Source of the DNA: an uncultured bacterium
GTDB lineage: Bacteria > Verrucomicrobiota > Kiritimatiellia > RFP12 > UBA1067
Direction of reading: 5' to 3'
Length of the DNA: 64,000 nt
NCBI GenBank assembly: GCA_902779565.1
Contig: CACZCD010000008.1
Coordinates: forward strand, 571 to 64,570
The position numbers and the translations under genes were made by a program. Numbering within the stretch: the first letter of the stretch is position 1; every line of letters begins with the position of its first letter. Below are positions 29,378-45,949 of the stretch, one piece after another. Under the pieces are notes generated by a model. The model saw nothing but the letters and a program-made list of their open reading frames with translations, ran no database searches and was not told where the DNA came from.

Positions 29378-29395
29378 CCGCCCCCGCTTGCTCCA

Positions 29396-29449
29396 AAACT
29401 CTCCCCCTGAGACAGGGGGAGTGCCCGGAAGGGCGAGGGGGTATGATTC
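29396..29449. repeat. second copy of the REP-like hairpin element
   Basis: aaactctccccctgagacagggggagtgcccggaagggcgagggggtatgattc matches 24927-24981, differing by one 1-nt indel and one substitution. Confidence 0.85.
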
Positions 29450-29501
29450 TCACGCTTAACCAACCAACCACCAGCCTTCGCTAAAGCTACGGCTCGGCAA
29501 G

Positions 29502-29550
29502 CTAATCACTAACGACTAACGACTAACCACTAGCCACTAACCACTAACCA
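29502..29550 (-). repeat. tandem heptamer array x7 in inverted orientation (CTAACSA)
   Basis: ctaatca ctaacga ctaacga ctaacca ctagcca ctaacca ctaacca is the reverse complement of TGGTTAG-type units. It ends 9 nt before the promoter at 29559. Confidence 0.9.
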
Positions 29551-29558
29551 CTGACTTA

Positions 29559-29567
29559 TGGTAAAAT
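29559..29567 (+). promoter_or_regulatory. extended -10 box TGgTAAAAT for the RhuM-Mrr-ATPase operon
   Basis: TGGTAAAAT at 29559-29567. The in-frame ATG at 29592 is preceded by GAAAGG (29577-29582). Confidence 0.45.
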
Positions 29568-29591
29568 ATGCGGCATGAAAGGCAAGGGTGG

Positions 29592-30509
29592 ATGAGCGCA
29601 AGCGAAAATCAGATTGTTGTGTATCAGCCGAACGAGACCGTGCGGCTGGATGTGCGGCTTGAAAACGAGACGGTGTGGCTGACGCAGCTGAAGATTGCCG
29701 AGTTGTTTGGGGTTCAGAAGGCTGCGATCAGCAAGCACGTCAAAAACATATTTGCTTCTGGTGAACTCGTCAGGGACGCAACAGTTTCCAAATTGGAAAC
29801 AGTTCAAACGGAAGGTGGACGCACGGTTGTTCGCACACAGGAGTTCTTCAATCTAGATGTCATTATTGCGGTTGGCTATAGGGTGAATTCTCGACGCGCG
29901 ACACAGTTCCGCATCTGGGCGACAAAAGTACTCAAGGAATACCTCCTTCGCGGATATTCGGTCAATTCCCGACTGAACCAACTAGAAGATACGATGCATC
30001 GTAATCTTGCCAAACATGATGACCGCATCGCCACCCTTGAACAGAAGGTTGATTTCTTCGTGCAGACGCAGACGCCGCCGTTGCAGGGCGTGTTTTATGA
30101 TGGCCAGTTGTGGGATGCGCGGGCGCTGGTGCTGAAGCTGATTCAAAGCGCGAAACGTTCGCTGATACTCATCGACAACTGGGCGACGCCGGAGGTGCTG
30201 GATCTTTTCGCGAAGAAGCGCAAGGGTGTGCGGCTGACAATCTTCACATCGGAGCATTTCAAGAAGGGTGTTCCGAAACACCTGATTTCCCCTGCCGACA
30301 TCTCGACCTTCAACGCACAGTACCCGAAACTCGCCGTCCGCTACAACGAATCCTTCCACGACCGCTTCCTCATCATCGACGACAAGGAACTGTTCCTGAT
30401 AGGCGCGTCGCTGAAAGACCTCGGCAGCAAATGTTTCGCCTTCACGAAACTGGACGCGGGCGAAATCCGGCGAATCAAGAGGTCGGCGTTTGGGGCGGGC
30501 GTAAGGTAA
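29592..30509 (+). CDS. RhuM-family protein with C-terminal PLD/HKD-like domain (H-x-R-x4-D variant)
   Basis: IVVYQPNETVRLDVRLENETVWLTQ...IIAVGYRVNSRRATQFRIWATKVLKEYLLRGY is the RhuM signature. The C-terminus reads SLILIDNWAT...HDRFLIIDDKELFLIGASLKDLG. The track start 29568 lies inside the -10 box, so 29592 is preferred. Confidence 0.7.
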   Translation: MSASENQIVVYQPNETVRLDVRLENETVWLTQLKIAELFGVQKAAISKHVKNIFASGELVRDATVSKLETVQTEGGRTVVRTQEFFNLDVIIAVGYRVNSRRATQFRIWATKVLKEYLLRGYSVNSRLNQLEDTMHRNLAKHDDRIATLEQKVDFFVQTQTPPLQGVFYDGQLWDARALVLKLIQSAKRSLILIDNWATPEVLDLFAKKRKGVRLTIFTSEHFKKGVPKHLISPADISTFNAQYPKLAVRYNESFHDRFLIIDDKELFLIGASLKDLGSKCFAFTKLDAGEIRRIKRSAFGAGVR

Positions 30510-30527
30510 TTTACGGAGGAACATGAA

Positions 30528-31445
30528 ATGAGAAAAGAAGATGGTGTGAAACTGAGCAAGAGGACGGCTGATGGGAAGATTGCGTATCTGATCAAGCCCA
30601 TTTTAAAGGTGTTGCAGGACGCGGGTGGGCAGTTGGAGCGTTCGGAAATAAAAGAACGCATAGCTGATTTGGATGACCAGATTGCCGAGTATGCCGAAAA
30701 AGTGACGATATCGAAGAAAAAGGGGAATACTTACAAGGAGTTCAATTTCAAGTTCAACTTTGCAGTCAAGGATTTGCTTTTTAATGGGTTGGTGACATTC
30801 TCGCGTTCATCTCCCGTGGTGCTAACGGAGAAGGGTGAAAACCTCAATTTAAACACGCTTGATGTTTGGAAGATCATAGAGGCGTCTAAAACGCATTGGG
30901 AAGAACTTAGCGAGAACAGGAAGAAGAAAGACTTTGACCTGAACGACAGCGAAGAGGAGACGCAGGCAGAGGAAAAGATCAAGGATGAATTCAAGGAATC
31001 CTTGCTTGCAGCTATCGCAAAAATGTCGCCCAAAAAGTTTGAGGCGTTTTCAAGGGCGCTGTTAAACAAGATGGGTGTGGAGTTCACGGAAAAGGGCGTT
31101 CAAGTCAGCAATGATGGCGGTATTGATGGATACGGTTATCATGTTGATCGTAACGATTTTCGAACGACGCGGGTGGTGATTCAGTGCAAGCGGTATAATG
31201 TTGGGCCCGTGTCCGAGCCAGAGATCAACCAGTTTTTGGGCGCGATGAACAAGTACCAAGCAGATTACGGCGTGTTCATCACAAATGGTAGGTTTACAAG
31301 CGCGGCAAAAACCGCCGCAAAAGAAGGTTCGCCGATTACTTTGATCGACGGCAACGAATTGGTGAGACTGGTCATAAGATACGAATTGTATATCAAGCCG
31401 GTTCAGACCTATGTGTTGGATGATTTCTATGATTCAGACGAGTAA
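30528..31445 (+). CDS. Mrr-like type IV restriction endonuclease (Mrr_N wHTH plus Mrr_cat)
   Basis: GGIDGYGYH...RVVIQCKRY...YGVFITNGRFTSAAKTAAKEG..ITLIDGNELVRLVIRY is the Mrr catalytic-core pattern. The gene is AT-rich. Confidence 0.75.
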   Translation: MRKEDGVKLSKRTADGKIAYLIKPILKVLQDAGGQLERSEIKERIADLDDQIAEYAEKVTISKKKGNTYKEFNFKFNFAVKDLLFNGLVTFSRSSPVVLTEKGENLNLNTLDVWKIIEASKTHWEELSENRKKKDFDLNDSEEETQAEEKIKDEFKESLLAAIAKMSPKKFEAFSRALLNKMGVEFTEKGVQVSNDGGIDGYGYHVDRNDFRTTRVVIQCKRYNVGPVSEPEINQFLGAMNKYQADYGVFITNGRFTSAAKTAAKEGSPITLIDGNELVRLVIRYELYIKPVQTYVLDDFYDSDE

Positions 31446-31457
31446 GGAGATTTTTAG

Positions 31458-33146
31458 ATGGCAAACACGATCACAGCTACAAGGGAATATGTAGACAGGA
31501 AGTTCGAGGAATTGAGGGATCAATTGGCGAAAGAAAGTAAAGATGACGCCTCTATGATTCGTCCTGAGCCCATGATATTACGTGGTGTGCAATTTGTTGA
31601 ACACCCAGTATTGCAAGGCCTTAAGTTAGATTTTTGTAATGCACAAGGTGTGCCTTCTGATACGATTATTTTTGCTGGAGAAAATGGAACTGGTAAAAGT
31701 GCTATTATAAGTTCGATAGATGATATTATTTCTAGAAGCTATTCAATAAAGCAAAAGATTATTCTTGAAGTGCAGACCGAACGAGGGGTTTGTTTTGTCA
31801 ACTATAATGTTCGGCAGAAAGGAATAGCGGATAGGTATTGTCAAGATTCGTCAGGAAAGCAATTCATTTTCACGGGGCTTAATTTTAGTAAGTCCATATA
31901 TTCTGATGTCGATATAAATTTCAAAGGAGGAGTTGTTAGAACTGTCACAAGCCTAGCATTTGATTCTGAATCGGGGAGTATGCATTCTACGCCAGAGCTT
32001 GCTACGGAAATCAAGCAATTGATTGTTGACATACAAAGTCTTGATGATGCAAGTACTGCACGTTGGGTTAGAAAAAACATCGGCAATGGCAAAACCATCG
32101 ACGAAGCGCCAAGTCAAGTTCGTTTGAACAGATTGACAAAAGCGTTCGACTATATTTTCTCCGATTTGCAATATGATAGGATTGAGAATCGGGATAACCA
32201 TAAAACAATCATTTTCAAGAAGTGTGGTGTTGATGTCCCGATAGATGCCTTGAGTTCTGGAGAAAAGCAGATTGTGTATCGAGGCTGTTTTATGCTGCGC
32301 AACATAAACGCTTTGACGGGGGCGTTTGTATTTATTGATGAGCCTGAGATAAGCATGCATCCCGAATGGCAGAAGAAGATATTGAATTTCTACAAGCGAA
32401 TATTCACTACGGAAAGCGGGATACAAACATCGCAAATTTTTGTTGTTACACATTCGCCGTTTATTATCCATAATGAGAATAGATACAATGATAAGGTTAT
32501 AGTTTTGGAACGAGATAAGGATAATAACATAATAGTTAAGGACAAGCCTGAATATTACAGATGTGATTCGGTGGAAGTGGTGTCGGATGCCTTTCATGTT
32601 GATTTCAATGTTCAGGGACAACGTCCAGTGGTTTATGTTGAAGGAAAGACGGATGAGCGATATTTCTCGGAAGCGGCAACTGTCTTTGGGATGGTATTAC
32701 CATTTGACTTTTGTTGGATTGGGCATATTAATGACAATGGTAAAGAGGATAATTCCGGCGATACCGGATTAAGACGTGCCGCGACACACTATAAGGCAAA
32801 CAATCCACCTATGAAGATTGTGATACAATATGACTGCGATAAACCGCATCAACTTGAACAGCAGGGAAATCTTATTGTGAGATCTGTTGAAAGTTATCCT
32901 AATGTCAAGAATTGTAAAAAGGGCTCGGAAAATGCCCTTGTACTGGATGTGATAGATGAAGTAAAGTGGAATGAATTTTTTGAGCGTAAAGAGAACGATA
33001 AGGGATATGGGAAATCTAACATCGAGTACGAACTACGAAAATCGGAACTGTGTAACTACATCTGCGGTTTGCCTGATGAAGTCAAGCGACATGTGTTTGC
33101 GAATCTAAAAACTGAAATTGAAACGTTGATAGATTTACTGAAGTAA
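31458..33146 (+). CDS. ABC-type ATPase fused to a C-terminal TOPRIM-like (DUF4435/OLD-type) domain; OLD-family or merged-PARIS (AriA-AriB)-like defence candidate
   Basis: Walker A GENGTGKS, ABC signature LSSGEKQ, Walker B VFIDEPE, H-loop VVTHSP. These are followed by VYVEGKTDERYF (TOPRIM Glu) and QYDCDKP (DxD). This is the most AT-rich gene in the window. Confidence 0.65.
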   Translation: MANTITATREYVDRKFEELRDQLAKESKDDASMIRPEPMILRGVQFVEHPVLQGLKLDFCNAQGVPSDTIIFAGENGTGKSAIISSIDDIISRSYSIKQKIILEVQTERGVCFVNYNVRQKGIADRYCQDSSGKQFIFTGLNFSKSIYSDVDINFKGGVVRTVTSLAFDSESGSMHSTPELATEIKQLIVDIQSLDDASTARWVRKNIGNGKTIDEAPSQVRLNRLTKAFDYIFSDLQYDRIENRDNHKTIIFKKCGVDVPIDALSSGEKQIVYRGCFMLRNINALTGAFVFIDEPEISMHPEWQKKILNFYKRIFTTESGIQTSQIFVVTHSPFIIHNENRYNDKVIVLERDKDNNIIVKDKPEYYRCDSVEVVSDAFHVDFNVQGQRPVVYVEGKTDERYFSEAATVFGMVLPFDFCWIGHINDNGKEDNSGDTGLRRAATHYKANNPPMKIVIQYDCDKPHQLEQQGNLIVRSVESYPNVKNCKKGSENALVLDVIDEVKWNEFFERKENDKGYGKSNIEYELRKSELCNYICGLPDEVKRHVFANLKTEIETLIDLLK

Positions 33147-33284
33147 AATCTGGATGAACACGTGTATGCATGATGAAAGGAAAATGATAGATGATAAAAC
33201 AGGACATTGAAGAAAATGAAAAAGCGAGTGTTGCTGGTCGCGGTGTTGGCCGCGTTAAACCTATTTGCTGAAGGAGAGCCGAAG

Positions 33285-34913
33285 ATGCCGACGTTGAACT
33301 GGATGGGAAGGGAAAAGGCGACGAAGTCCGTCAAGGATGTCGTCATGAAGATTCTGCGCGAGGACAAGTCGCTGTCGTACCATGCAGACGGATTGCTTTC
33401 GCTACGGGGAGTTTCGGAGTCTCGGAGAGAGGGCGAAGACTCTAAAAATTCTCCAGATCTCCAAAACTCCAAGACTCCCAGTAGCGAAAGCAACAATGTC
33501 CTCGTCCACGGCGACAACTTGGAGGCGCTGAAGGCGCTGTTGCCGTTCTATGCCGGGCAGGTGAAGTGCATTTACATCGATCCGCCGTACAACACTGGCT
33601 CCGCGTTCGAGCATTACGATGACAACCTCGAACACTCCACATGGCTCAACATGATGTACCCGCGCCTTAAGCTCCTACGCGATTTCATGCGCGAGGACGG
33701 TAGCATTTGGATATCCATCGATGACGATGAGCAGGCGTACATGAAGGTCATGTGCGACGAGATATTTGGAAGGCAGAACTTTGTGGCAACCGTCGTCTGG
33801 CAAAAACGCACATCGCCAGACAATCGCTTGCGCCTTGGTGATGCGCACGATTACATTCTCGTTTATCAGAAGCACAAAGATAAATGGTTGTTTAATCAGA
33901 TAGAGGCGGGAGAGGATAGAAAGAAAGATTTTAAGAACCCTGATAACGATCCCCGCGGTCCTTGGGCCTCCGTTGATATTACAGGAATGAAGGGCCACGC
34001 TACGTCAAATCAGTTTTATACGATAATAACTCCAGCAGGTGTAGCCTTCCCGCCTCCGGATGGAAGATGCTGGGCATTGGCTGAAGACACATTTAATAAG
34101 TTACGTTCAGAGAATAGAATATGGTTTGGCAAAGATGGCAAATCGCGGCCAAGACAAAAAAGGTATCTTTCGGAGCTGAAGGGTCAAAATTGCTGGACGT
34201 GGTGGACTAAGGAGGAGGTTGGTCATAACCAAGAAGCAAAGAAAGAAGTCAATGTTCTATTCGGGGCGGATAACCCATTTGACACTCCAAAGCCAGAGCG
34301 CCTAATACAACGTATATTGACTCTTGCGACGAATCCGGGTGACCTTGTGCTTGATTCGTTTCTTGGCTCTGGTACGACAACGGCGGTTGCGCACAAGATG
34401 GGGCGGCGGTGGATCGGTATTGAGATGGGCGAACACGCGAAGACACATTGCGTGGTGAGGATGAAGAAGGTAGTCGATGGCGAACAGGGCGGAATCTCCA
34501 AGGCGGTGAAGTGGCAAGGTGGTGGCGGTTTCCGTTACTACGAGCTGGGCGAGGCAATCTTGAACGAGGACGGTTCGTTGACGGGTGACATTCCGTTTGA
34601 CGTGATGGCGGCGCATGTTTGGTTCTCCGAAACGAAGACGCCTTATATGGGCGGCAAGAAATCCACCGTTCTTGGAGTACATGTGGGGACGGCGTATGTG
34701 CTTCTGTACAATGGCATCCTCAAGGACAGGAGCGTGAACGGCGGCAATGTGTTGACGCGCAAGACGCTAGAGGTGATACAGGCGGATCTGGCGGGGCGTG
34801 ACTATGAGAAGATAGTCGTCTATGGCGAGGCGTGTCGTTTGATGGCGCCAACATTGGAGGCGTTGAAGATCGAGTTCCGCCAGACTCCTTACGACTTGGT
34901 GACGAGGAGGTGA
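33285..34913 (+). CDS. mod: type III restriction-modification methyltransferase (Mod, N6-adenine/N4-cytosine family)
   Basis: MPTLNWMGREKA start, VHGDNLEALKAL, IYIDPPYNTG (motif IV), DSFLGSGTT (motif I). AAGGAGAG SD at 33271-33278. The track start 33207 adds a spurious signal-peptide-like extension. Confidence 0.8.
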   Translation: MPTLNWMGREKATKSVKDVVMKILREDKSLSYHADGLLSLRGVSESRREGEDSKNSPDLQNSKTPSSESNNVLVHGDNLEALKALLPFYAGQVKCIYIDPPYNTGSAFEHYDDNLEHSTWLNMMYPRLKLLRDFMREDGSIWISIDDDEQAYMKVMCDEIFGRQNFVATVVWQKRTSPDNRLRLGDAHDYILVYQKHKDKWLFNQIEAGEDRKKDFKNPDNDPRGPWASVDITGMKGHATSNQFYTIITPAGVAFPPPDGRCWALAEDTFNKLRSENRIWFGKDGKSRPRQKRYLSELKGQNCWTWWTKEEVGHNQEAKKEVNVLFGADNPFDTPKPERLIQRILTLATNPGDLVLDSFLGSGTTTAVAHKMGRRWIGIEMGEHAKTHCVVRMKKVVDGEQGGISKAVKWQGGGGFRYYELGEAILNEDGSLTGDIPFDVMAAHVWFSETKTPYMGGKKSTVLGVHVGTAYVLLYNGILKDRSVNGGNVLTRKTLEVIQADLAGRDYEKIVVYGEACRLMAPTLEALKIEFRQTPYDLVTRR

Positions 34914-34917
34914 GGTT

Positions 34918-37596: not shown

Positions 37597-37677
37597 GATG
37601 AAATGCGGACTGCTGGCTGGAGGGGGTGCTAGAGGGACAGACCCAATTTGTGGAGTAGAAATGGTGGAGTAGAGACT

Positions 37678-37818
37678 ATGGCGATGCCGCAGAGAGACGA
37701 TACGATAGAGGCGATCAAGCGACTTGACGCCTTGCTTGAGTATGCTGTCATGCATGGAGACGAGGAAGAGGCCGAACGCATCCGCGAGGAGTTGCGCAAG
37801 CTGACGGAATCGGTTTGA
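37678..37818 (+). CDS. 46-aa helical small protein, copy 1 of a 3-member family
   Basis: MAMPQRDDTIEAIKRLDALLEYAVMHGDEEEAERIREELRKLTESV*. It is not in the ORF track (<60 aa). It is conserved at protein level with 44250..44390 and the split copy at 41007. Confidence 0.55.
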   Translation: MAMPQRDDTIEAIKRLDALLEYAVMHGDEEEAERIREELRKLTESV

Positions 37819-38082
37819 ATGGCGGCAGTATGGTATGATCTGGCGAGGAGGAACACTATGATAACGAAGAGCGAATTGGGAAATCTGCTTGAGCCCACGG
37901 AGACGTGCCGTGTCGAGCAAACCAAGTCCACGACGGACAAGGACAAGTTCGGCGAGGCCGAGACGGGGAAGTCGGTCGTACTGGCGCCAGCGCCAACTGA
38001 CGACGAGGTGCTTGAATGACAAAGAGGGTGAACGGATGAAAATCTTAAACACACGAATGAACATTTTCAGAGGAGGCGGGAA

Positions 38083-39174
38083 GTGAAGAAGAAGATCGGT
38101 GTTCACCTTGCACACGGAAATAAAAGACCTGTCAAGACGCGGAAGTCAAGTCTTGCAGATCGCATCATAACGCTTGTCGAGGAGGCAAAGCGCAAGGTTG
38201 TCTCGGCGGTCAATGTCGCTCTTGTCTATACCTACTACGAAGTCGGGCGAATGATTGTGGAGGAGGAGCAGGGGGGCAAGAAACGTGCCCAATACGGCAA
38301 GGCACAGCTCCAGGCACTGTCGAAGAAGTTGACGGCACAGCTCGGCAAGGGATGGAGCGCGACGAATCTAGAATACATGCGCAAGTTGTTCCGCGTGTAT
38401 TCAAATTCACCAATTCCTCAAACCGGGTTTGAGGAATCTGACGTAAGTCCTCGGTCCGTGTATCCGTTTCGCCTAAGCTGGTCGCACTATCTCGTGTTGA
38501 TGAGGATGGACAATCCTGACGAGAGACGCTTCTATGAAATCGAAGCCGCCGAAAACGGTTGGGATCTGGACGAGTTGAAGCGACAATTCAATTCCTCTCT
38601 TTACGAGAGGCTTGCCCTCAGTCGCGACAAGAAGGGCGTACTCGAATTGGCGAAAAAAGGGCAAATTGTCAAAAGGCCGGAAGATGTCGTCAAAGATCCG
38701 TATGTGCTTGAATTCCTCGGCCTGGAAGAGAAAGCGCGATACAGCGAAACGGAATTGGAGTCACGGATAATCGAACACGTCGAGCAGTTCATACTAGAAA
38801 TGGGCAAAGGATTCATTCTGGTTGGGCGGCAAGTACGTTTCACCTTCGAGGAAAAGCATTTCAGGGTGGATCTCGTGTTTTACAATCGGATTCTTCGGAG
38901 CTTCGTGGTCGTCGACCTGAAAACAGGCGAGTTGACGCATCAGGATATCGGGCAGATGCAGATGTACGTGAACTACTACGACCGAATGGTGAAGCTGCCG
39001 GAAGAGAATCCGACCATCGGGATACTCCTTTGTGCGGACAAGAACGACGCCATTGTTGAAATGACGCTGCCGCAAGGCTCCAAGCGCATATTCGCGAGCA
39101 AGTACATGACCGTTCTTCCCGATAAGGAAACCTTGCGTCTACTCGTCCGCAAGCAGCTCGGAGGCGAGAAATGA
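38083..39174 (+). CDS. DUF1016/YhcG-family PD-(D/E)xK nuclease, copy 1
   Basis: WSHYLVLMRMDNPDERRFYEIEA, DPYVLEFLGL, ESELESRIIEH..FILEMGKGF.LVGRQ and RVDLVFYNRILRSFVVVDLKTGEL match the YhcG pattern. GTG start follows a GGAGG SD. Confidence 0.75.
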   Translation: MKKKIGVHLAHGNKRPVKTRKSSLADRIITLVEEAKRKVVSAVNVALVYTYYEVGRMIVEEEQGGKKRAQYGKAQLQALSKKLTAQLGKGWSATNLEYMRKLFRVYSNSPIPQTGFEESDVSPRSVYPFRLSWSHYLVLMRMDNPDERRFYEIEAAENGWDLDELKRQFNSSLYERLALSRDKKGVLELAKKGQIVKRPEDVVKDPYVLEFLGLEEKARYSETELESRIIEHVEQFILEMGKGFILVGRQVRFTFEEKHFRVDLVFYNRILRSFVVVDLKTGELTHQDIGQMQMYVNYYDRMVKLPEENPTIGILLCADKNDAIVEMTLPQGSKRIFASKYMTVLPDKETLRLLVRKQLGGEK

Positions 39175-39500
39175 AGAAGCAGGCCACGAAAAAGAACGAC
39201 AAAGAATACGACAGATTGGTTGCCGACATCTCGAAGATGGCCAAGTCGTTGGCGGGGCATTACGAGCAGTCTTGTGCCTTGCTCAAACCGACAATAGATG
39301 ACGCCTGTCGGAATCCCAGTTCGTACAGCGAAAAGGAGATCGAGCGGATTTTCGATCAGATACTGGATGTGTCGTGCTACAAGAAGGGGAAGCTGCTCTT
39401 CGACAGGCTGTGCAAGTGTTTTATGCCGATCTATCCTGATGCGGTTCGGTTCTACATCGACAGCGAAAAGGAAATGTATGGTGACGAAAACGACACTTGA
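39171..39500 (+). CDS. hypothetical 109-aa protein between the two DUF1016 genes
   Basis: The start overlaps the upstream stop (ATGA at 39171). No recognisable motif. Confidence 0.45.
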   Translation: MKKQATKKNDKEYDRLVADISKMAKSLAGHYEQSCALLKPTIDDACRNPSSYSEKEIERIFDQILDVSCYKKGKLLFDRLCKCFMPIYPDAVRFYIDSEKEMYGDENDT

Positions 39501-39553
39501 AGAACCTAAGAAACAGATTGCCGACGACGAGTGTGAGCTGATGGAGGTGAAAC

Positions 39554-40945
39554 ATGCGCAGTAAAAAGAAAACTGACTTTGAAAGTCTGGTCGGTCGGAT
39601 TCAGGCAACGTCGGAGGCGTTGCAGCAGGACGCGCTTGTGGTCATCAACCGCAGCGTAACAGCGCGGGCGTGGCTCACGGGCTACTACATCGTCGAGTAC
39701 GAACAGCACGGTGCTGACCGTGCAAAGTATGGCGAGAGGTTGTTGAAGAAACTTTCATCGAGGTTGGGATCTGATAAATACGCCGTTCCCACATTGAAAA
39801 CATATCGTCTTTTCTATAAGCTTTATCCTGAGCTTGCCGCTGAGATTTGCAGGTATCTGGAGAGCCGTTTCGGAAAAGGATCGACAGTGTCGAGCCAATT
39901 GCCGGGCGGCAACATCAACGTCTTGCCGGGAAAAGGATCGACACTGTCGAGCTTATCTGTGGAGCAGGGATTGCTTGTCTATTCTGGTGATGATATCGGC
40001 ATAGCACCATTCGCACTCTTCAACAACCTTTCGTATTCTCACATTTGCGAGTTGTTGCATCTTCCTGATCCGATGATGCGGACGTTCTATGCATTTGAGG
40101 CAATCCGCGGAACGTGGAGCGTGCGGGCCTTGCGCCGGCAGATTGACAGCCAGTACTATCAGCGCGTGGGATGGGCGAAGAATCCGCACAAGATCGCAGC
40201 GTTGGCGCAAGGGCGGGCGGAGAAGCTGGACGCGAAGGATTTCATCAAGCAGAAGACGGTTCTTGAATTCCTTGGATTGAAGCCCCGGGAAGATTGGGAT
40301 GAGTCGGATCTTGAGAAGGGGATCCTTGACAATCTCAAGAACTTCATTCGAGAGATGGGGGCCGGTTTCTGTTTCGAGGATCAGCAGCAGCACATCCTCA
40401 TCGATGATGTGTACGAACGGATTGATCTTGTATTCTACCACCGCATCCTTAAGTGCCACATCCTCATTGAGCTTAAGCCGAAGAAGCTCAACTACAAGGA
40501 TATTGCGCAACTTTCGCTCTATATGGCTTACTACCGTAAGAACAAGATGACGGCGGGCGACAATCCGCCGATCGGCATCCTTCTGTGCACGGGCGTAGGT
40601 AAAGAGACGGCCGAGTACCTCGCACCATTCACCGATCCGCAGCTTTTCCTCTCCGAGTATCAACTTCAGCTTCCCACGAAGGAGAGGTTCACCGAGTTCC
40701 TCAAGAAGGAAAACGAGGGGCTTCAGGCAAGTGTGGGAAAAGGTGTGGTAAAAAGTGGGGTAAAGATTCTGGAACTTCTCAAGGAGTTTCCGGAGATGAC
40801 GCGTGAAAGGCTGGCGGCGGAAGTGGGCCTGTCGGTAAGAGGCGTTGAAAAGAATCTCGCGCAACTGAAGGCTGCGGGCAAGATTCGCAGAATCGGTGGA
40901 CGCAAGGGCGGTCATTGGGAGGTCGTAAAAGGCGGCGGGAAGTAG
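39554..40945 (+). CDS. DUF1016/YhcG-family PD-(D/E)xK nuclease, copy 2, fused to a C-terminal winged-helix domain
   Basis: WSVRALRRQIDSQYYQR, LEFLGL, GAGFCFEDQQ and RIDLVFYHRILKCHILIELKPKKL. The C-terminal ILELLKEFPEMTRERLAAEVGLSVRGVEKNLAQLKAAGKIRRIGGRKGGHWEVV is a wHTH of the kind found at the C-terminus of AlbA_2/Schlafen-type proteins. Confidence 0.75.
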   Translation: MRSKKKTDFESLVGRIQATSEALQQDALVVINRSVTARAWLTGYYIVEYEQHGADRAKYGERLLKKLSSRLGSDKYAVPTLKTYRLFYKLYPELAAEICRYLESRFGKGSTVSSQLPGGNINVLPGKGSTLSSLSVEQGLLVYSGDDIGIAPFALFNNLSYSHICELLHLPDPMMRTFYAFEAIRGTWSVRALRRQIDSQYYQRVGWAKNPHKIAALAQGRAEKLDAKDFIKQKTVLEFLGLKPREDWDESDLEKGILDNLKNFIREMGAGFCFEDQQQHILIDDVYERIDLVFYHRILKCHILIELKPKKLNYKDIAQLSLYMAYYRKNKMTAGDNPPIGILLCTGVGKETAEYLAPFTDPQLFLSEYQLQLPTKERFTEFLKKENEGLQASVGKGVVKSGVKILELLKEFPEMTRERLAAEVGLSVRGVEKNLAQLKAAGKIRRIGGRKGGHWEVVKGGGK

Positions 40946-41006
40946 TAGTTGGCTATTTGTGGTTAGAGCTGGGAAGTTGACAGAGTAGAATGCATAGGGA
41001 AGCATC

Positions 41007-41427
41007 ATGGCGATGCCGCAGAGAGGCGATCCGCCTACGCCAAGGCTTCCGACTCCGCTGAAGCTTCCACCTACGCTAAAGCTACCGCCGCCGCGCTTTG
41101 CGCTAGGACGGACAAGACGGCGGACAAGACGGCGGACAAGTATGATCCTCCTTCGCGCTTGCGAGCTTCCGCCTTCGCCGAGCCTCCCCCCGTCACATCT
41201 TCATGCCCCACCCCTCCGACACATATTGCAATATGTGTACGAGCGTGTACGGTTGGTGATTAGTGGCTTCCGCCTCCGCGTATATGCTTTTGCGCGTCAA
41301 GTGCGTTGCTTGAATACGCCGTCAGGCCATTCCCGCTTTTATATAAATCCGGGAATGACCTGATATCGCCGAAGCCGAGGCCGCGCGCCTCCGTGAAGAG
41401 TTGAAGCGCCTCACCGACTCGATCTGA
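41007..41427 (+). pseudogene. split copy 2 of the 46-aa small-protein gene (about 336 bp replaces its middle)
   Basis: The 5' part atggcgatgccgcagaga (MAMPQRGD) is at 41007-41030. The 3' part ...AEAEAARLREELKRLTDSI* is at ~41364-41427. Unrelated repeat DNA lies between them. Confidence 0.6.
41063..41185 (+). repeat. 123-bp direct repeat, copy 1 (built from 18-nt and 12-nt sub-repeats)
   Basis: 119/123 identical to 42828-42950. It contains CCRCCTACGCTRAAGCTT-type 18-mers and GACGGCGGACAA x2. Confidence 0.85.
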
Positions 41428-41537
41428 AAGGAATCAAACCATGTTCACAGTTTATAAACCATGGACATCGTTGGTTACCACCGGATTTATATAAGTGCGG
41501 TGGTAAATGTGAGTGGTTTTTATATGCGCTGGCAGAT

Positions 41538-41566
41538 TTGCGGCAAAGGGCGGGGTGTGGTACAAT
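41538..41566 (+). promoter_or_regulatory. sigma70 promoter (TTGCGG-N17-TACAAT with TG extension), repeated at 44190-44218
   Basis: ctggcagatttgcggcaaagggcggggtgtggtacaat is near-identical to 44181-44218. It lies ~245 nt upstream of the second RhuM-like gene. Confidence 0.5.
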
Positions 41567-41812
41567 ACGCGGCGCTTTCGGGGATTGATGCCCTAGGTAG
41601 GGCTATAAAGCGAAAGTCGTCCGGACCGGGCTTGTGGCAAGCTGAGATCCACAGGAAACCGCATGGGCCGGGTAGCGAGGAAATCCGCTGAAACAACGCG
41701 GACGCCACTTCGGTGGCATGGCTGGCAGAGCCGATTCCAGACTGCAGCGGCGGCGTGTGCCGCCGATGATACGGCAACACATCCCGCATAGGCGGGCGAA
41801 AGGAATCGGACA

Positions 41813-42727
41813 ATGGGATACAACACGGAGTTTGAAGGCGAGTTTGCCTTGAGCAAAAAGAATGAGATTATCGTCTATCAGCCGAATGAAACCATGCGGC
41901 TGGATGTTCGGCTTGAAAACGAAACAGTTTGGTTGACTCAAAGCCCAATGGGGATTTTGTTTGGATGTACGACACGAAACATAAGGCTGCACCTTGAGAA
42001 CATCTACTCATGCGGAGAACTGACGCAGGAGGCAACTAGGAAGGATTTCTTCCTAGTTCGGCAAGAAGGAGACCGGCAAGTAAAAAGGAATGTCACCTGC
42101 TACAATCTTGACGCAATAATATCCGTCGGTTATAGGGTTAATTCCGTGTTGGGCGTGAAGTTCAGACAATGGGCGACCCAAGTTCTCAAAGATTACATGC
42201 TTCGCGGCTATGCGTTCAGCCAACGTTTGAACCAGCTTGAAGACAAGATGGATCGGCGGCTTTCGAAGCACGATCAGGAGATTGTAGAGCTGAAGGACAA
42301 GGTGGATTTCTTCGTCCAGACTTCGCTGCCGCCGATGCAGGGCGTGTTCTACAACGGACAGGTCTTTGACGCGAAGGTGTTTGCGGCAAAGCATATCTTG
42401 AGCGCGAAGAAGTCGATCCTACTCATTGACAGTTGGGTGGATGTCGTGACGCTTGAACTGCTAGCGAAAAAAGCAAAGGGCGTGACGGTCGAGATTGTTG
42501 CCTCGCACAGAGGTAATAAGATTTCGCCAAGTGACATTGCAACATTCAACAGTCAGTATGGTGGCTTGACGGTGCGCCAAAGTCGAAACTTCCACGACCG
42601 TTTTCTCATCATCGATGACAAGGTGCTGTATCTCATCGGCGCGTCGTTGAAAGACCTTGGTTGGAAATGTTTCGCCTTCACGAAACTTGATGCCGCCGAA
42701 ATCCCCAACCTGAAGGCGAGGGTGTAA
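41813..42727 (+). CDS. RhuM-family protein with PLD/HKD-like C-terminal domain, copy 2
   Basis: Paralog of 29592..30509: IIVYQPNETMRLDVRLENETVWLTQ, ISVGYRVNSVLGVKFRQWATQVLKDYMLRGY, HDRFLIIDDKVLYLIGASLKDLG. Confidence 0.7.
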   Translation: MGYNTEFEGEFALSKKNEIIVYQPNETMRLDVRLENETVWLTQSPMGILFGCTTRNIRLHLENIYSCGELTQEATRKDFFLVRQEGDRQVKRNVTCYNLDAIISVGYRVNSVLGVKFRQWATQVLKDYMLRGYAFSQRLNQLEDKMDRRLSKHDQEIVELKDKVDFFVQTSLPPMQGVFYNGQVFDAKVFAAKHILSAKKSILLIDSWVDVVTLELLAKKAKGVTVEIVASHRGNKISPSDIATFNSQYGGLTVRQSRNFHDRFLIIDDKVLYLIGASLKDLGWKCFAFTKLDAAEIPNLKARV

Positions 42728-42827
42728 TGCGCGTACCCTAATTTCAGGCGGCAGTTTGGTCTAATTCCCGCTGTAAAAAGTAGGTCAACAAGTTGGAGTA
42801 GTTTGAACAATAGAAATACTCTTGCGA

Positions 42828-42950
42828 GCTTCCGCCTACGCTGAAGCTTCCGCCGCCGCGCTTTGCGCTAGGACGGTCAAGACGGCGGACAAGACGGCGG
42901 ACAAGTATGATCCTCCTTCGCGCTTGCGAGCTTCCGCCTTCGCCGAGCCT
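42828..42950 (+). repeat. 123-bp direct repeat, copy 2
   Basis: See 41063-41185. Together the two copies bracket the second RhuM-like gene and its leader. Confidence 0.85.
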
Positions 42951-42993
42951 ACCCCCGCTGCTCGTGTGAGATGGGGAAGCATCTGAGCAGCTC

Positions 42994-43081
42994 GGGCGTG
43001 AAAACTGAAAATGCACATTTCACGCCCAAAATCGGCATGTCCAAAATGGGCGTGAAATCTGCAAATGCATGTTTCACGCCC
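42994..43081. repeat. two 34-bp inverted repeats GGGCGTGAAA-N14-TTTCACGCCC, 54 bp apart
   Basis: Located at 42994-43027 and 43048-43081. Each has a perfect 10-bp arm and a 14-nt centre containing TGCA. Confidence 0.8.
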
Positions 43082-43159
43082 ATATTCGATTGACTTCAGC
43101 CCTGCCGAAACCTCGCCGATCTTGAATCAATTGCGGCGCGCCTGAATCCTAACCAAGTT

Positions 43160-43398
43160 CATAGTTTGCAAACTATGGTTCTTAGATTGGGCGGCACTTC
43201 GCGATACGACAGATTCAAAGTTTGCAAACAGTGGTTTCCGAGTGGCGCCACATTCCACATGGCGATAACATGTTCATAGTTTGCAAACTATGGTTTCCGC
43301 CCGATCCTTTCGTGCCTCATAGATACACAGTTTGCAAACTATGGATTTCGATTGGGCGATACTTCGCCATACCACAGGTTCAAAGTTTGCAAACTATG
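43160..43398. repeat. array of five 18-bp palindromes (consensus CATAGTTTGCAAACTATG), period 51-59 bp
   Basis: Copies at 43160-43177, 43216-43233, 43275-43292, 43326-43343 and 43381-43398. The segments between them are partly similar to each other. The array sits just downstream of the wHTH gene. Confidence 0.9.
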
Positions 43399-43406
43399 AA
43401 ATTGTG

Positions 43407-43988
43407 TTAGGAGGGAGATAGGGGCTGCAATGCGAGGGCGAGCAGGGTGCGGGCGAGAGGGTCGGATGGTTTCCCGAGTTCGTAGATGCGATGTCCGTCT
43501 GGCGCGTCGCAGGGGATGACTATCTGCGCCGCAATCAAGATGCCAAGCTGCCGCCGCAGCGTAGCGAACGGAAGATCCGTTGCTTTGGCAAGTTCCTCAA
43601 AGCCGCATCGCGCGTTGGAGGAGAGGGACTGCAGGATGCGGATGCGGACATGGTGGGCAAAGGCGTTGATCGTGTTGAGAAGGGGCTTCTGCCAGTCCAG
43701 TTCGCAGGAAGCCGCGAAGAGTCTTGCCAAGACCATCTGAAGCCTGTACACGGGCGATGCCTTCTCCGGTTCGCCGGAACAGATGACATACCGTCCCGTA
43801 CGTTCGACCGAAAGAAACCCCGCCTCGGCCAGCTGCTTGAGGTATTGGCTGGCGGCGGCCTTTTTGAGACCGACGAATTCGCCCGCCTGGACGACATGCA
43901 GTTCGCGGTTGGGCGATGTGGCGATTTCCCGCAGCAGCGACAACCGAATCTCGTTGTTGAGAACCCGACAGATTTTCCAGAACTCCAT
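43407..43988 (-). CDS. transcriptional regulator with two tandem ArsR-like winged-helix domains
   Basis: WKICRVLNNEIRLSLLREIA...GLKKAAASQYLKQLAEAGFLSVERTGRYV and FAHHVRIRILQSLSS...LAKATDLPFATLRRQLGILIAAQIV give two ArsR/SmtB-type wHTH units in one 193-aa chain. Confidence 0.65.
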   Translation of the reverse strand: MEFWKICRVLNNEIRLSLLREIATSPNRELHVVQAGEFVGLKKAAASQYLKQLAEAGFLSVERTGRYVICSGEPEKASPVYRLQMVLARLFAASCELDWQKPLLNTINAFAHHVRIRILQSLSSNARCGFEELAKATDLPFATLRRQLGILIAAQIVIPCDAPDGHRIYELGKPSDPLARTLLALALQPLSPS

Positions 43989-44034
43989 ACCTCTCCTTTC
44001 GCCCCAAAGTATATCACACCTTACCTCTGAAAAC

Positions 44035-44168
44035 CATAGTTTGCAAACTGTGGTTTTCAGGTGGGTGTCGCCGCGCCTTACTACAGGTTCAAAGTTTGCA
44101 AACTATGGCTTCGCGGTGGCTGCACATGGTACATAACGATATCACATGTTCATAGTTTGCAAACTGTG
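44035..44168. repeat. three more copies of the 18-bp palindrome upstream of the wHTH gene
   Basis: Copies at 44035-44052 (part of an extended near-palindrome at 44030-44057), 44090-44107 and 44151-44168. Spacing is 55 and 61 bp. Confidence 0.9.
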
Positions 44169-44189
44169 GTTTCGCATGGGCTGGCAGAT

Positions 44190-44218
44190 TTGCGGCAAAG
44201 GGCGGGGCGTGGTATAAT
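44190..44218 (+). promoter_or_regulatory. sigma70 promoter (TTGCGG-N17-TATAAT with TG extension)
   Basis: Second copy of the 41538-41566 promoter module. GAAGGTGA SD and ATG 44250 lie downstream. Confidence 0.5.
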
Positions 44219-44249
44219 ATGCGGCGGAATGAATCGAAGGTGAATGACC

Positions 44250-44390
44250 ATGGCGATGCCACAGAGAGACAATGTGATTGAGGAAATCAAGCGGCTGGAT
44301 CTGTTGCTTGAATATGCCGTTCAGCATGGTGACGAAGCCGAGGCCGAGCGCCTCCGCGAAGAGCTGAAGCGCCTCACCGAACGTTTATGA
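44250..44390 (+). CDS. 46-aa helical small protein, copy 3
   Basis: MAMPQRDNVIEEIKRLDLLLEYAVQHGDEAEAERLREELKRLTERL*. Same length as copy 1, and the differences are largely conservative or synonymous-type. Confidence 0.55.
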   Translation: MAMPQRDNVIEEIKRLDLLLEYAVQHGDEAEAERLREELKRLTERL

Positions 44391-44414
44391 CGAAAACCCA
44401 AAAGGAGAAGAACT

Positions 44415-44630
44415 ATGCACTATTCGCGCTACAAAGTTGTGGTGATTGAGGAAAGCGGGCTGAGCACGCTGCTGGTCGGTTCCGCGAAGATGCCGTTGGG
44501 CAAAATCGAGCAGACATTTAACCAATATGCACAACAGGGTTGGCAAGTCGTCTTTCAGATTGTCGAGAAACGGCGCTTCCTCCTGTTCTGGTCGCGCGAG
44601 GCGATGATCGTTACATTTGGACATGTCTGA
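44415..44630 (+). CDS. small DUF4177-like protein
   Basis: 71 aa: MHYSRYKVVVIEESGL...IEQTFNQYAQQGWQVVFQIVEKRRFLLFW. The pattern resembles DUF4177 (from memory, unverified). Confidence 0.45.
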   Translation: MHYSRYKVVVIEESGLSTLLVGSAKMPLGKIEQTFNQYAQQGWQVVFQIVEKRRFLLFWSREAMIVTFGHV

Positions 44631-44765
44631 TCCGACGTCGGCAACCACCGGACTTCTATAAATGCGGTGGTAAATGCGCGCCGCCCGAAAAGCCCCACCC
44701 CCGTACGCATATTGCAATATGTGCACGGGAGCGTGTGCGCTTGGGGAAACGCGAAGCGAAAGGCA

Positions 44766-44774
44766 TGGTATAAT
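44766..44774 (+). promoter_or_regulatory. extended -10 box TGGTATAAT, leaderless uORF transcript
   Basis: TATAAT ends at 44774 and the ATG is at 44781 (6-nt gap). Confidence 0.5.
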
Positions 44775-44780
44775 ACGCCC

Positions 44781-45895: not shown

Positions 45896-45949
45896 GGTTG
45901 CGGGATTGGCGGTTGGAAAGAGGGGGGGATTTCTCCCGTGGTTTGATTA

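What the first reader, a model, noticed from the sequence alone, without database searches (positions are those of the whole stretch)
29378..44780. 15-kb defence island without a recombinase, built from repeated junction modules
Seen in sequence: a run of + strand genes, with visibly AT-rich blocks inside a >60% GC chromosome. The genes encode RhuM/PLD-like proteins (x2), an Mrr-like nuclease, an ABC-ATPase::TOPRIM fusion, type III Mod/Res and two DUF1016 PD-(D/E)xK nucleases. The gene blocks are separated by recurring short modules. These are a 46-aa ORF (three copies), hairpins with a conserved TTATATAA-type loop, palindromes of the CATA..TTGCAA..TATG type, a duplicated promoter (TTGCGG-N17-TAYAAT), 123-bp direct repeats and heptamer arrays. 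No integrase, transposase or tRNA target is present. Inference: the island may grow by homologous or site-specific exchange at these modules, in a cassette-like way, rather than by a classical mobile element.
Basis: partly seen in the sequence, partly recalled or inferred. Interest (0 to 1): 0.65.

Follow-up and report, generated by a model that had tools for sequence, protein, structure and literature searches.

The report
Recombinase-free defence hotspot with reusable junctions
A 17-kb low-GC block between a sugar-kinase gene and a butyrate-kinase operon of an uncultured rumen bacterium is an anti-phage defence hotspot; its cargo differs between strains, no recombinase is present, blocks have been gained or lost at short shared sequences, and a previously undescribed 46-residue gene sits at the end of many different defence operons.

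Summary
A 38-56% GC block lies in 62-70% GC DNA, and all the named genes and repeats are there. The exceptions: the TOPRIM domain is unconfirmed, the heptamer arrays occur outside the island too, and the island starts at 27964, not 29378. No integrase, transposase or tRNA lies in the island or within about 10 kb of it.

Other strains carry different cargo in the same araB...buk interval (McrBC-like, helicase-DUF559, Abi_C, RlaP, HsdR, an IS).

Two blocks have filled and empty alleles:
- A 1.3-kb membrane-protein gene is flanked by a 113-116-bp duplication of the araB 3' end.
- A 46aa-DUF4177 unit is flanked by diverged ~120-bp palindrome+promoter modules, with the crossover inside the -10 box.

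The modules are not one system:
- The 46-aa ORF is a real gene (dN/dS 0.13-0.22; 1,672 clusters). In 57 of about 61 loci a co-oriented gene, most often defence-type, ends just upstream.
- The palindromes are probably operators of two related wHTH regulators.
- The promoters match the host's extended -10 type.

Verdict: a core defence hotspot remodelled by recombination at short homologies, which is a new variant of known kinds, plus a new small-protein family.

The parts
26413..27963 (+). araB-like FGGY sugar kinase; left conserved flank
   Evidence: Pfam FGGY_N/FGGY_C. The flank 25217-27970 is 97.6% identical in strain L126.
27850..27965 (+). Direct repeat copy 1: the last ~37 codons and stop of araB
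   Evidence: 113-116 nt, 97-98% identical to 29262-29377.
27966..29261 (.). 1.3-kb insert. It opens with a 21-nt remnant of the 46-aa ORF 3' part (27966-27986) and carries a 288-aa polytopic membrane protein gene (28133-28999, minus strand).
   Evidence: Absent in L126/L127, where the araB stop runs straight into the 29378-29438 sequence. Present with the same junctions in L081, L082 and L216. No Pfam, NCBIfam or PADLOC hit.
29262..29377 (+). Direct repeat copy 2 of the araB 3' end
29378..29556 (+). G-rich hairpin module and CACTAAC heptamer array; repeats also found outside the island
   Evidence: Copies at 24927-24981, 24703-24900, 15708-15751, 19608-19658 and 2090-2129.
29568..30509 (+). 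RhuM/PDC-S05 no. 1 with PLD-like C-terminus (likely true start 29592)
   Evidence: Pfam Virulence_RhuM 2e-23; PADLOC PDC-S05 5e-108. 90.8% DNA identity to the second RhuM of L126, in a different context.
30528..31445 (+). Mrr-type (type IV) restriction nuclease
   Evidence: Mrr_N + Mrr_cat; PADLOC mREase_IV and PDC-S02.
31458..33146 (+). ABC ATPase of the AriA/PtuA/OLD type with an unassigned C-terminal domain
   Evidence: AAA_15/AAA_21; PtuA 1e-35; AriA structures 7e-8. TOPRIM not confirmed. The protein is the only member of its cluster. The segment is missing from Logan contigs of three other samples.
33207..37596 (+). Type III restriction-modification system, Mod (33207-34913) and Res (34918-37596)
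   Evidence: PADLOC MTase_III 2e-183 and REase_III 4e-133.
37623..37818 (+). Leader plus 46-aa gene copy c1 (ORF 37678-37818)
   Evidence: Intact ORF. Family evidence.
38083..39500 (+). DUF1016/YhcG nuclease no. 1 plus overlapping 109-aa ORF; a portable cassette
   Evidence: Pfam and PADLOC PDC-S02. 96-97% identical, with sharp ends at 38084 and 39494, at a different hotspot in L208-L215.
39554..40945 (+). DUF1016/YhcG nuclease no. 2 with C-terminal wHTH
41007..41427 (+). 46-aa gene copy c2, a pseudogene. ORF nt 1-24, 54-75 and 84-141 are kept; foreign blocks lie at 41031-41304 and 41328-41369.
   Evidence: Alignment to c1 and c3. The same start-plus-repeat junction is present at 88% identity in L105-L108 and L113.
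41062..41192 (+). 131-nt direct repeat, copy 1 (copy 2 at 42827-42957), built of 18-mer and 12-mer units
   Evidence: 96% identity. The same unit family is inserted after nt 24 of other 46-aa ORFs.
41205..41263 (.). palP module (CCCCACCCC..CATATTGCAATATG..), copy 1
   Evidence: Up to four copies around the HTH197 gene in L106-L108.
41469..41509 (+). Hairpin with TTATATAA loop (related copy at 44636-44676; a different stem with the same loop at 41325-41368)
   Evidence: DNA folding z -5.1, -3.2 and -3.1. These are the only such hairpins in the window.
41524..41812 (+). Promoter copy (41524-41574) plus 238-nt leader of RhuM no. 2
   Evidence: 92% identical to 44176-44226. Promoter plus leader is 91% identical in L123, in front of a different gene. 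RNA fold z -2.0; no Rfam family.
41813..42727 (+). RhuM/PDC-S05 no. 2
   Evidence: 58% aa identity to no. 1.
42994..43088 (.). Two tandem GGGCGTGAAA...TTTCACGCCC hairpins
   Evidence: z -5.0 and -5.5.
43150..44173 (-). Tandem-wHTH ArsR-like regulator (43407-43988, minus strand) embedded in about eight 18-bp palindromes CATAGTTTGCAAACTATG
   Evidence: The module is 86.5% identical in L123/L124, next to a different defence island. It is a paralogue of HTH197 (28% identity, E 2e-21), which is flanked by palP instead.
44176..44630 (+). Promoter copy (44176-44226), 46-aa gene c3 (44250-44390) and DUF4177 gene (44415-44630)
   Evidence: Absent in strains L105-L112 and present in L113-L122. Found in metatranscriptome contigs.
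44692..44814 (+). palP module copy 2 plus the portable promoter module (GAAGCGAAAGrCATGGTATAATAC...GGATGG) in front of the 340-aa gene. The conserved right flank starts here.
   Evidence: Homology with L105-L112 starts at 44700. The same module also precedes the 46-aa gene and RlaP genes in L113, L118, L119 and L121.
44873..48045 (+). Right conserved flank: 340-aa secreted protein, butyrate/acetate kinase, phosphotransbutyrylase
   Evidence: Pfam. 95-97% identical in L105-L112.

Best explanation
The segment is a chromosomal defence hotspot of an uncultured rumen bacterium of the PVC group. It sits between araB and a 340aa-buk-ptb operon.

It holds at least six defence units: two RhuM/PDC-S05, an Mrr type IV nuclease, an AriA/PtuA/OLD-like ABC ATPase, a type III RM system, and two DUF1016/PDC-S02 nucleases. 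A tandem-wHTH regulator sits within arrays of its presumed operators.

The hotspot is not a self-mobile element. Its content turns over between strains by host recombination. This happens partly through the conserved flanks and partly through short sequences that many blocks share:
- a host-type extended -10 promoter module;
- the leader and 5' end of a conserved 46-aa gene;
- operator-palindrome modules;
- duplicated target segments.

Shown here:
- The cargo varies between strains.
- There are filled and empty alleles with 113-120-bp flanking repeats.
- In one of these alleles the crossover lies inside the -10 box.
- One deletion went through a 6-bp microhomology.

Inferred:
- Blocks enter as circles by a single crossover, or as linear DNA by a double crossover after uptake or transduction.
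- Blocks leave by recombination between the flanking repeats.

The 46-aa ORF is not a recombination site as such. It is a translated two-helix protein gene that this clade places at the 3' end of very diverse defence operons. Its function is unknown; my guess is a protein-binding adaptor or regulator. Its ubiquity supplies incidental homology at block borders.
For: Low GC and gene content.

No recombinase or tRNA in the island or its flanks.

The same flanks hold different cargo:
- L126/L127: araB-RhuM-ORF6N x2-DUF1016_N-RhuM-473aa-McrB-like-DUF2357.
- L105-L112: Abi_C, helicase-DUF559, or an IS, next to the 340-aa gene.
- L113-L122: HsdR, RlaP x2 and others, next to 46aa-DUF4177.

First filled/empty pair. 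L126 has a single araB end followed by 29378-29438. The window has the 1.3-kb insert between 113-116-nt repeats.

Second filled/empty pair:
- L105 is identical to L118 up to CATGGTATAATAC, and then follows the downstream module.
- The two modules of the filled allele are about 83-88% alike.
- L105 is therefore the recombinant of the two.
- L118 additionally lost 305 bp through GAAAGC microhomology.

Portable blocks with sharp ends:
- DUF1016+109aa is 96-97% identical at the FTHFS hotspot, bounded by 46-aa leader copies.
- RhuM no. 1 is 91% identical to a RhuM in another context.
- The regulator + palindromes + promoter + leader unit is 86-91% identical at a third locus.

The 46-aa gene:
- 1,672 clusters and 410 clusters at 50% identity.
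- A co-oriented upstream gene within 400 bp in 57 of about 61 loci, with a median gap of about 50 bp.
- The upstream genes are very diverse and mostly defence families.
- Pooled pN/pS is 0.22 and median dN/dS 0.13. Third-position variability is 3.5 times that of positions 1 and 2.
- In 56 copies with unrelated flanks, identity is at background outside the ORF and 0.7-0.96 inside it.
- AlphaFold predicts a helical hairpin, pLDDT 90.
- RNA contigs contain it.
Against: - Direction of the events (gain or loss) cannot be told from the alleles. The origin of the first 116-nt duplication is unknown.
- Several block borders have no shared module at all, for example RhuM no. 1 | Mrr (18 bp) and ABC | Mod. 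Illegitimate joining must therefore also occur.
- The 46-aa copies are diverged (pS 0.48), which makes them poor partners for homologous recombination within a genome.
- No strain with araB directly next to the 340-aa gene was found, so a fully empty hotspot is not documented.
- All comparisons use metagenome contigs. Repeats of this length can break or mis-join assemblies, and upstream/downstream pairings around the 46-aa ORF could in part be chimeric.
Confidence: 0.6

Rival explanations
1. The repeats play no part. The island is an ordinary defence hotspot shuffled by illegitimate recombination and by exchange through the conserved flanks only. The recurring sequences are just regulatory parts (promoters, operators, terminators), a common small gene, and the repeat families that are abundant in this clade.
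For: - The heptamers and G-rich hairpins occur outside the island.
- TGGTAHAAT is the host promoter consensus.
- The palindromes pair with paralogous regulators.
- Most modules are absent from other loci that carry the 46-aa gene.
- Some borders lack any module.
- A microhomology deletion is seen in L118.
Against: - The empty allele L105 is exactly the recombinant of the two flanking modules of the filled allele.
- The 1.3-kb insert is bounded by 113-116-nt repeats.
- The DUF1016 cassette is bounded by 46-aa leader copies at two different hotspots.
- Homology starts within 5 bp of the 46-aa start codon behind at least six different neighbours.
Confidence: 0.22
2. The island is the decayed remnant of one or more classical integrative elements that targeted the 3' end of araB. 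The integrase has since been lost, and the araB duplication is the att scar.
For: - The duplicated 3' end of a gene is the classical signature of integrase-mediated insertion.
- The low GC indicates foreign origin.
Against: - The repeats bracket only 1.3 kb with a single membrane-protein gene, not the island.
- There is no third copy near the right end.
- No integrase is found in any of the strain variants.
- There is no tRNA.
- Strain L126 shares the left junction but has different cargo.
Confidence: 0.08
3. A site-specific system encoded elsewhere in the genome (Xer-like, integron-like, or a Y1/RAYT-type enzyme acting on hairpins) moves cassettes. It would use the palindromes, the TTATATAA hairpins or the invariant 5' end of the 46-aa ORF as its sites.
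For: - Truncations and insertions recur after nt 19-24 of the 46-aa ORF.
- Arg6 is AGA in 76 of 76 copies, although the other Arg codons vary.
- The hairpins keep the loop while the stems differ.
- Cargo is almost always co-oriented with the 46-aa gene.
Against: - No recombinase lies near any of more than 100 loci, apart from shufflon-type integrases next to hsdS.
- The 46-aa ORF DNA has no attC-like fold (z -0.9).
- The hairpins and palindromes are nearly absent from the wider set of 46-aa loci.
- The one mapped crossover lies in a promoter -10 box, not in a palindrome.
- The insertions at nt 24 belong to a repeat family that earlier notes report inside unrelated genes as well.
Confidence: 0.1

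Closest known systems
Core defence hotspots without mobile-element hallmarks (cDHS1/cDHS2 of Pseudomonas aeruginosa, PMC10250203; hotspot no. 37 of E. coli, PMC10121019)
   Same: - The region is fixed between conserved core genes.
- It is filled with very different defence systems in different strains.
- Its composition is foreign.
- No identifiable means of mobilisation is present.
- Those authors propose transfer by transduction plus homologous recombination through the flanks, and state that how such hotspots are built is open.
   Different: - Here, internal borders also coincide with short shared sequences.
- Filled and empty alleles recombining at those sequences are visible.
- The host is an uncultured rumen PVC bacterium.
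- A dedicated small gene marks the ends of operons.
Insertion with long target duplication of restriction-modification genes (Nobusato et al. 2000, as cited in Furuta, Abe and Kobayashi 2010, PMC2853133)
   Same: A gene block without mobility genes is present in one strain and absent in another. It is flanked by direct repeats of more than 30 bp that correspond to a single copy in the empty genome and overlap the 3' end of a gene. The 1.3-kb insert, with its 113-116-nt araB repeats and the empty site in L126, fits this pattern.
   Different: - The insert carries a membrane protein of unknown function, not R and M genes.
- The second case here has diverged (83-88%) repeats. It therefore looks like recombination between pre-existing homologous modules rather than a fresh target duplication.
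Integron gene-cassette arrays (from general knowledge, not tested against a reference here)
   Same: A one-directional array of single-function cassettes separated by recurring short elements, rich in defence genes in some sedentary integrons.
   Different: - No IntI is present.
- There are no attC-type folded sites; the 46-aa ORF DNA does not fold.
- Each cassette brings its own promoter.
- The recurring element is a translated gene.
Minimal mobile elements of Neisseria and pdif modules of Acinetobacter plasmids (from general knowledge, not tested here)
   Same: Cassette exchange without a recombinase encoded in the cassette, through conserved flanking sequences (MMEs) or host Xer sites (pdif).
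   Different: - MMEs use the flanking core genes only.
- pdif modules need 28-bp XerC/XerD sites. The perfect 14-20-bp palindromes here do not look like those, and the mapped crossover is not in a palindrome.
UVR-domain helical hairpins (UvrB C-terminus, McsA, ClpC linker)
   Same: The AlphaFold model of the 46-aa protein superposes on these hairpins (TM 0.74-0.92). The second helix, EEAERIREELRKL, resembles the UVR motif.
   Different: - Foldseek E-values are not significant (0.75 or more).
- There is no Pfam UVR hit.
- hhalign probability is 33%.
- The 150 listed hits of the library-wide profile search are all small proteins of 38-148 aa.
- This is a resemblance only.

Membership tests
Core defence hotspot (cDHS-type) | Bounded by genes conserved in related strains | tested here: met
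   The left flank 25217-27970 is 97.6% identical in L126. The right flank from 44700 is 95-97% identical in L105-L112.
Core defence hotspot (cDHS-type) | Content differs between strains and is dominated by defence genes | tested here: met
   Cargo includes McrBC-like, helicase-DUF559, Abi_C, RlaP, HsdR, type III RM, Mrr and DUF1016.
Core defence hotspot (cDHS-type) | No hallmark genes of a mobile element | tested here: met
   No integrase or transposase family among the island ORFs or within about 10 kb of the flanks. One strain has an IS at the border (L109).
Insertion with long target duplication | Related genome lacks the insert and has one copy of the repeat | tested here: met
   L126/L127 compared with the window.
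Insertion with long target duplication | Direct repeats longer than 30 bp, and no mobility gene in an insert shorter than 20 kb | tested here: met
   113-116 nt at 97-98% identity. The 1.3-kb insert carries one membrane-protein gene.
Insertion with long target duplication | Insert contains R and M genes (criterion of PMC2853133) | tested here: not met
   The insert encodes only a 288-aa membrane protein with no family hit.
Classical integrative island / prophage | Integrase gene at one end | tested here: not met
Classical integrative island / prophage | att repeats bracketing the whole island, often at a tRNA gene | tested here: not met
   The araB repeats bracket 1.3 kb only. There is no copy near 44700 and no tRNA in the 64 kb.
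Integron | attC-like folded recombination sites between cassettes | tested here: not met
   The 46-aa ORF and the 131-nt repeat do not fold better than shuffles (z -0.9 and -0.6).
Integron | IntI integrase with an adjacent attI | not testable with these tools
   None in the window region.
Type III restriction-modification | Adjacent Mod methyltransferase and Res helicase-nuclease | tested here: met
   PADLOC MTase_III 2e-183 and REase_III 4e-133; Pfam N6_N4_Mtase and ResIII.
OLD / PARIS-type ATPase-TOPRIM nuclease | ABC-type ATPase domain | tested here: met
   AAA_15/AAA_21; PtuA 1e-35; AriA and OLD structures.
OLD / PARIS-type ATPase-TOPRIM nuclease | TOPRIM (DUF4435-like) nuclease domain | tested here: inconclusive
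   The C-terminal 192 aa gave only DUF3226 at E 0.15. No structure hit covers this part.
UVR domain (PF02151), for the 46-aa protein | Significant match to the family profile | tested here: not met
   No UVR hit at E up to 5. The 150 listed hits of the library-wide profile search are all small proteins.
UVR domain (PF02151), for the 46-aa protein | Antiparallel helical hairpin of about 35-45 residues | tested here: inconclusive
   The model is a hairpin that superposes on McsA, UvrB-C and ClpC, but with E of 0.75 or more. hhalign probability is 33%.

The most novel reading that the evidence does not exclude
Rumen PVC (Kiritimatiellae-like) bacteria may organise their defence islands with a dedicated grammar. 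Promoter-led cassettes would be closed by a conserved 46-residue helical-hairpin protein gene. That gene would have two roles. As DNA, it would provide portable homology for swapping cassettes between hotspots and strains. As protein, it would act as a general accessory factor for many unrelated defence systems, for example a UVR-like adaptor that couples nucleases and ATPases to a host repair or protease machine. This would be an undescribed, recombinase-free cassette system analogous in role to integrons.
Probability: 0.15. Interest if true: 0.8.

Novelty: new variant of a known kind. Interest (0 to 1): 0.58.

Why it matters
How defence hotspots that lack any mobility gene are assembled is an openly stated gap (PMC10250203).

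This locus gives base-level examples. One cassette was gained or lost by a crossover inside a shared -10 promoter box. One insert has a 116-nt target duplication. One nuclease cassette is bounded by copies of a small gene's leader at two different hotspots. These examples turn 'recombination through flanks' into specific, checkable junctions.

The analysis also uncovers a large, unannotated family of 46-residue proteins: 1,672 clusters, with no Pfam, phage or plasmid match. In this clade the gene sits at the tail of very different defence operons. It could serve as a marker for finding new defence genes in PVC bacteria, and it is a candidate general co-factor worth testing.

Tried and rejected
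- The genome-contig scan with araB found only distant relatives (best 65%), which were useless for synteny.
- Logan contigs of other samples were too fragmented. Most of their 'joints' are cross-mapping between paralogous copies, not real deletions.
- Rfam found nothing in the island, and there is no tRNA.
- The simple promoter scan does not see the TTGCGG-N17-TAYAAT sites because the -35 is weak. They fit an extended -10 consensus instead.
- The 46-aa protein has no hit in the phage, plasmid or IMG/VR collections, no solved relative by sequence and no significant fold match.
- I rejected the attC-like reading of the 46-aa ORF.
- I rejected reading the L118 allele as a simple 13-bp-repeat insertion. 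It is a filled allele that has also suffered a microhomology deletion.
- The last context look-up, for the 288-aa gene, only found the same araB insertion again, not a donor context.

Full report
**What is there.**
The window has 62-70% GC on both sides of a block from about 28000 to 45000 that drops to 38-56%. The Mrr/ABC-ATPase part falls to 38-46%.

Profile searches confirm the gene list:
- Two RhuM/PDC-S05 proteins with a weak PLD-like C-terminus.
- An Mrr type IV nuclease.
- An ABC ATPase related to AriA, PtuA and OLD.
- A type III Mod/Res pair.
- Two DUF1016/YhcG (PDC-S02) nucleases, the second with a wHTH tail.
- A tandem-wHTH ArsR-like regulator on the minus strand.
- A DUF4177 gene.

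The claimed TOPRIM domain of the ATPase could not be confirmed. Its C-terminal 192 residues give only DUF3226 at E 0.15.

No tRNA is present in the 64 kb. No recombinase family appears among the island ORFs or among the called genes within about 10 kb on either side.

**Corrections to the observation.**
- The island starts at 27964, not 29378. Between the araB stop and 29378 lie a 1.3-kb low-GC segment with one 288-aa membrane-protein gene and a second copy of the last 113-116 nt of araB.
- The heptamer arrays and the G-rich hairpin after araB also occur at four other places in the window, so they are repeats found well outside the island.
- The middle '46-aa ORF' is a pseudogene. ORF nucleotides 1-24, 54-75 and 84-141 survive around two foreign blocks.
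- The first five genes (RhuM-Mrr-ABC-Mod-Res) are packed with 12-60-bp gaps and have no modules between them.

**The locus is a hotspot.**
- Strains L126/L127 share the left flank at 97.6% identity. After araB they carry RhuM, two ORF6N genes, a DUF1016_N fragment, a second RhuM (91% identical to the window's RhuM no. 1), a 473-aa gene and a McrBC-like pair.
- On the right side, eight contigs (L105-L112) match the window at 95-97% identity from position 44700 (44713 in L109) onward. Upstream they carry a different wHTH regulator and Abi_C, a helicase-DUF559 protein or an IS.
- Ten further contigs (L113-L122) match from 44245-44250, the start of the third 46-aa gene. That start is preceded by at least six different neighbours, among them HsdR, two RlaP genes and a DUF1016 gene.
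- More distant araB relatives have a RhuM-led island, an XRE regulator or no island.

**Blocks gained or lost at repeats.**
Two filled/empty pairs were found.
- *First pair.* In L126 the araB stop is followed directly by the sequence that in the window follows the second araB copy. The 1.3-kb segment is thus an insert bounded by a 113-116-nt duplication of its target. This matches 'insertion with long target duplication' described for restriction-modification genes (PMC2853133), except that the cargo is a membrane protein. The left end of the insert carries a 21-nt remnant of the 46-aa gene.
- *Second pair.*
  - In the filled strains, the 46aa-DUF4177 unit is flanked by two diverged copies (about 83-88%) of a ~120-nt palindrome-plus-promoter module.
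  - The empty allele L105 equals the upstream copy up to CATGGTATAATAC and the downstream copy after it. The exchange therefore took place inside the -10 box.
  - L118 shows a further 305-bp deletion through the microhomology GAAAGC.

The same promoter module also precedes RlaP genes in L113, so it travels with different cassettes.

**Portable blocks.**
- The DUF1016 no. 1 + 109-aa cassette (38084-39494) is 96-97% identical in L208-L215, at a different hotspot upstream of a formate-tetrahydrofolate ligase gene. Its ends there are sharp. It is preceded by a 46-aa gene and followed by a truncated 'leader + first 19-23 nt' of that gene.
- The regulator with its 18-bp palindromes, promoter and leader is 86-91% identical next to an SNF2-Fic-DUF1156 island at a third locus.

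**The 46-aa gene.**
- It is a large family: 1,672 clusters at 90% identity and 410 at 50% identity. It has no Pfam, phage, plasmid or IMG/VR match.
- One identical protein sits in at least five unrelated loci.
- In 80 further metagenome loci, 57 of about 61 with enough sequence have a co-oriented gene ending within 400 bp upstream, with a median gap of about 50 bp.
- Those upstream genes are extremely varied and mostly defence families: HsdR, GmrSD, Fic, T5orf172, PDDEXK, NYN, Uzume and many PDC candidates. A few are housekeeping genes.
- Downstream genes are a mix of defence and core genes.
- Among 76 distinct sequences, pooled pN/pS is 0.22 and median dN/dS is 0.13. Third positions vary 3.5 times more than first and second positions.
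- In 56 copies with unrelated flanks, identity is at background outside the ORF, 0.4 over the ribosome-binding site, and 0.7-0.96 inside the ORF.
- It is therefore a translated gene, not a mere site. AlphaFold gives a two-helix hairpin, pLDDT 90. The model resembles UVR-domain hairpins without statistical support. Metatranscriptome contigs contain it.
- Caveat: retrieval by protein similarity biases dN/dS downward, and assemblies can mis-join at such repeats.

**The other modules.**
- The two palindrome types share a CATA..TGCA..TATG skeleton. Each surrounds one of two paralogous wHTH regulators (28% identity, E 2e-21), so they are most simply operators.
- The promoters carry TGGTAHAAT. This word occurs eight times in the window, all on the coding strand, against 0.22 expected. 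That makes it the host's extended -10 type.
- palP, pal18, the promoter duplicate and hairpin A are almost absent from the 80 wider 46-aa loci.
- The modules therefore do not form one system.

**Conclusion.**
The best reading is a core defence hotspot of the kind known from Pseudomonas and E. coli. It is remodelled by host recombination through the flanks and through short shared sequences inside it, with illegitimate joins as well.
- A decayed integrative element is unlikely, because the araB repeats bracket only 1.3 kb.
- A trans-acting site-specific system is not excluded, but nothing positive supports it. The only mapped crossover lies in a promoter.

The genuinely new items are the base-level junction evidence and the 46-aa family.

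Noticed in passing
window 41031-41304; L140/L141 (after nt 24 of the ORF at 7219/3563); L200:7025; L123 minus strand ~9625: A GC-rich repeat family (CCGCCTACGCCAAGGCT.. / CCTCCTTCGCGCT.. / ..ACGGrGGACAAG) sits exactly after nucleotide 24 of the 46-aa ORF in at least four independent copies. Twice it is a 30- or 33-nt in-frame insertion that leaves the ORF open. The window's 131-nt direct repeats are built of the same units.
   Followed up: partly
46-aa ORF codon 6 (window 37693-37695, 44265-44267): Arg6 is AGA in 76 of 76 distinct copies, although the other arginines use varying CGN codons. The first ~20 nt of the ORF are more conserved than the protein requires. Truncated copies end at nt 19-24.
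   Followed up: partly
L162:7, L208:6740, L140:7219: The N-terminal 14 residues, MAMPQRDDTIEAIK, are also found fused to a different lysine/alanine-rich C-terminus (KRRAAEKKAAEEKKKAE...). Many 50%-identity cluster representatives match only residues 1-29 to 1-38 or 18-46. These are chimeric or truncated small ORFs, or assembly chimeras.
   Followed up: no
window 30528-33146: The Mrr + ABC-ATPase pair is the most AT-rich part (38-46% GC). The ATPase is the only member of its 90% cluster, and Logan contigs of three other samples that hold araB lack 31148-33139. This looks like a recent, strain-specific acquisition.
   Followed up: partly
window 29607-29686 / 41861-41940 and 30353-30468 / 42589-42704: The two RhuM genes are 84% identical in DNA at both ends but only about 66% in the middle. 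This mosaic pattern suggests exchange between paralogues.
   Followed up: no
window 41575-41812: A 238-nt leader between the promoter and RhuM no. 2 is conserved at 91% in front of an unrelated 112-aa gene in L123. It folds slightly better than shuffles (z -2.0) and matches no Rfam family.
   Followed up: partly
L216 (reverse strand) ~1700-1760: Another strain with the same araB insertion has a tandem duplication of about 17 nt (CCCGAACCGCAACCACG) inside the first araB 3' copy, giving a 528-aa kinase. It also has an 84-bp deletion in the membrane-protein gene.
   Followed up: no
L208, L209: A hotspot upstream of a formate-tetrahydrofolate ligase gene repeats the same gene grammar as the window: RM system, RhuM, ATPase or Abi gene, 46-aa gene, wHTH/Schlafen-like gene, DUF1016, 110-aa gene.
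   Followed up: partly
window 237, 9613, 23168, 29559, 41558, 44210, 44766, 45950: TGGTAHAAT occurs eight times, always on the plus (coding) strand, against 0.22 expected. It is probably the extended -10 promoter consensus of this organism.
   Followed up: partly
window 39171-39500: The 109-aa ORF overlapping the end of DUF1016 no. 1 belongs to a 123-member cluster and always follows a DUF1016 gene in eight other loci. It is a probable two-gene unit with no family assignment.
   Followed up: partly
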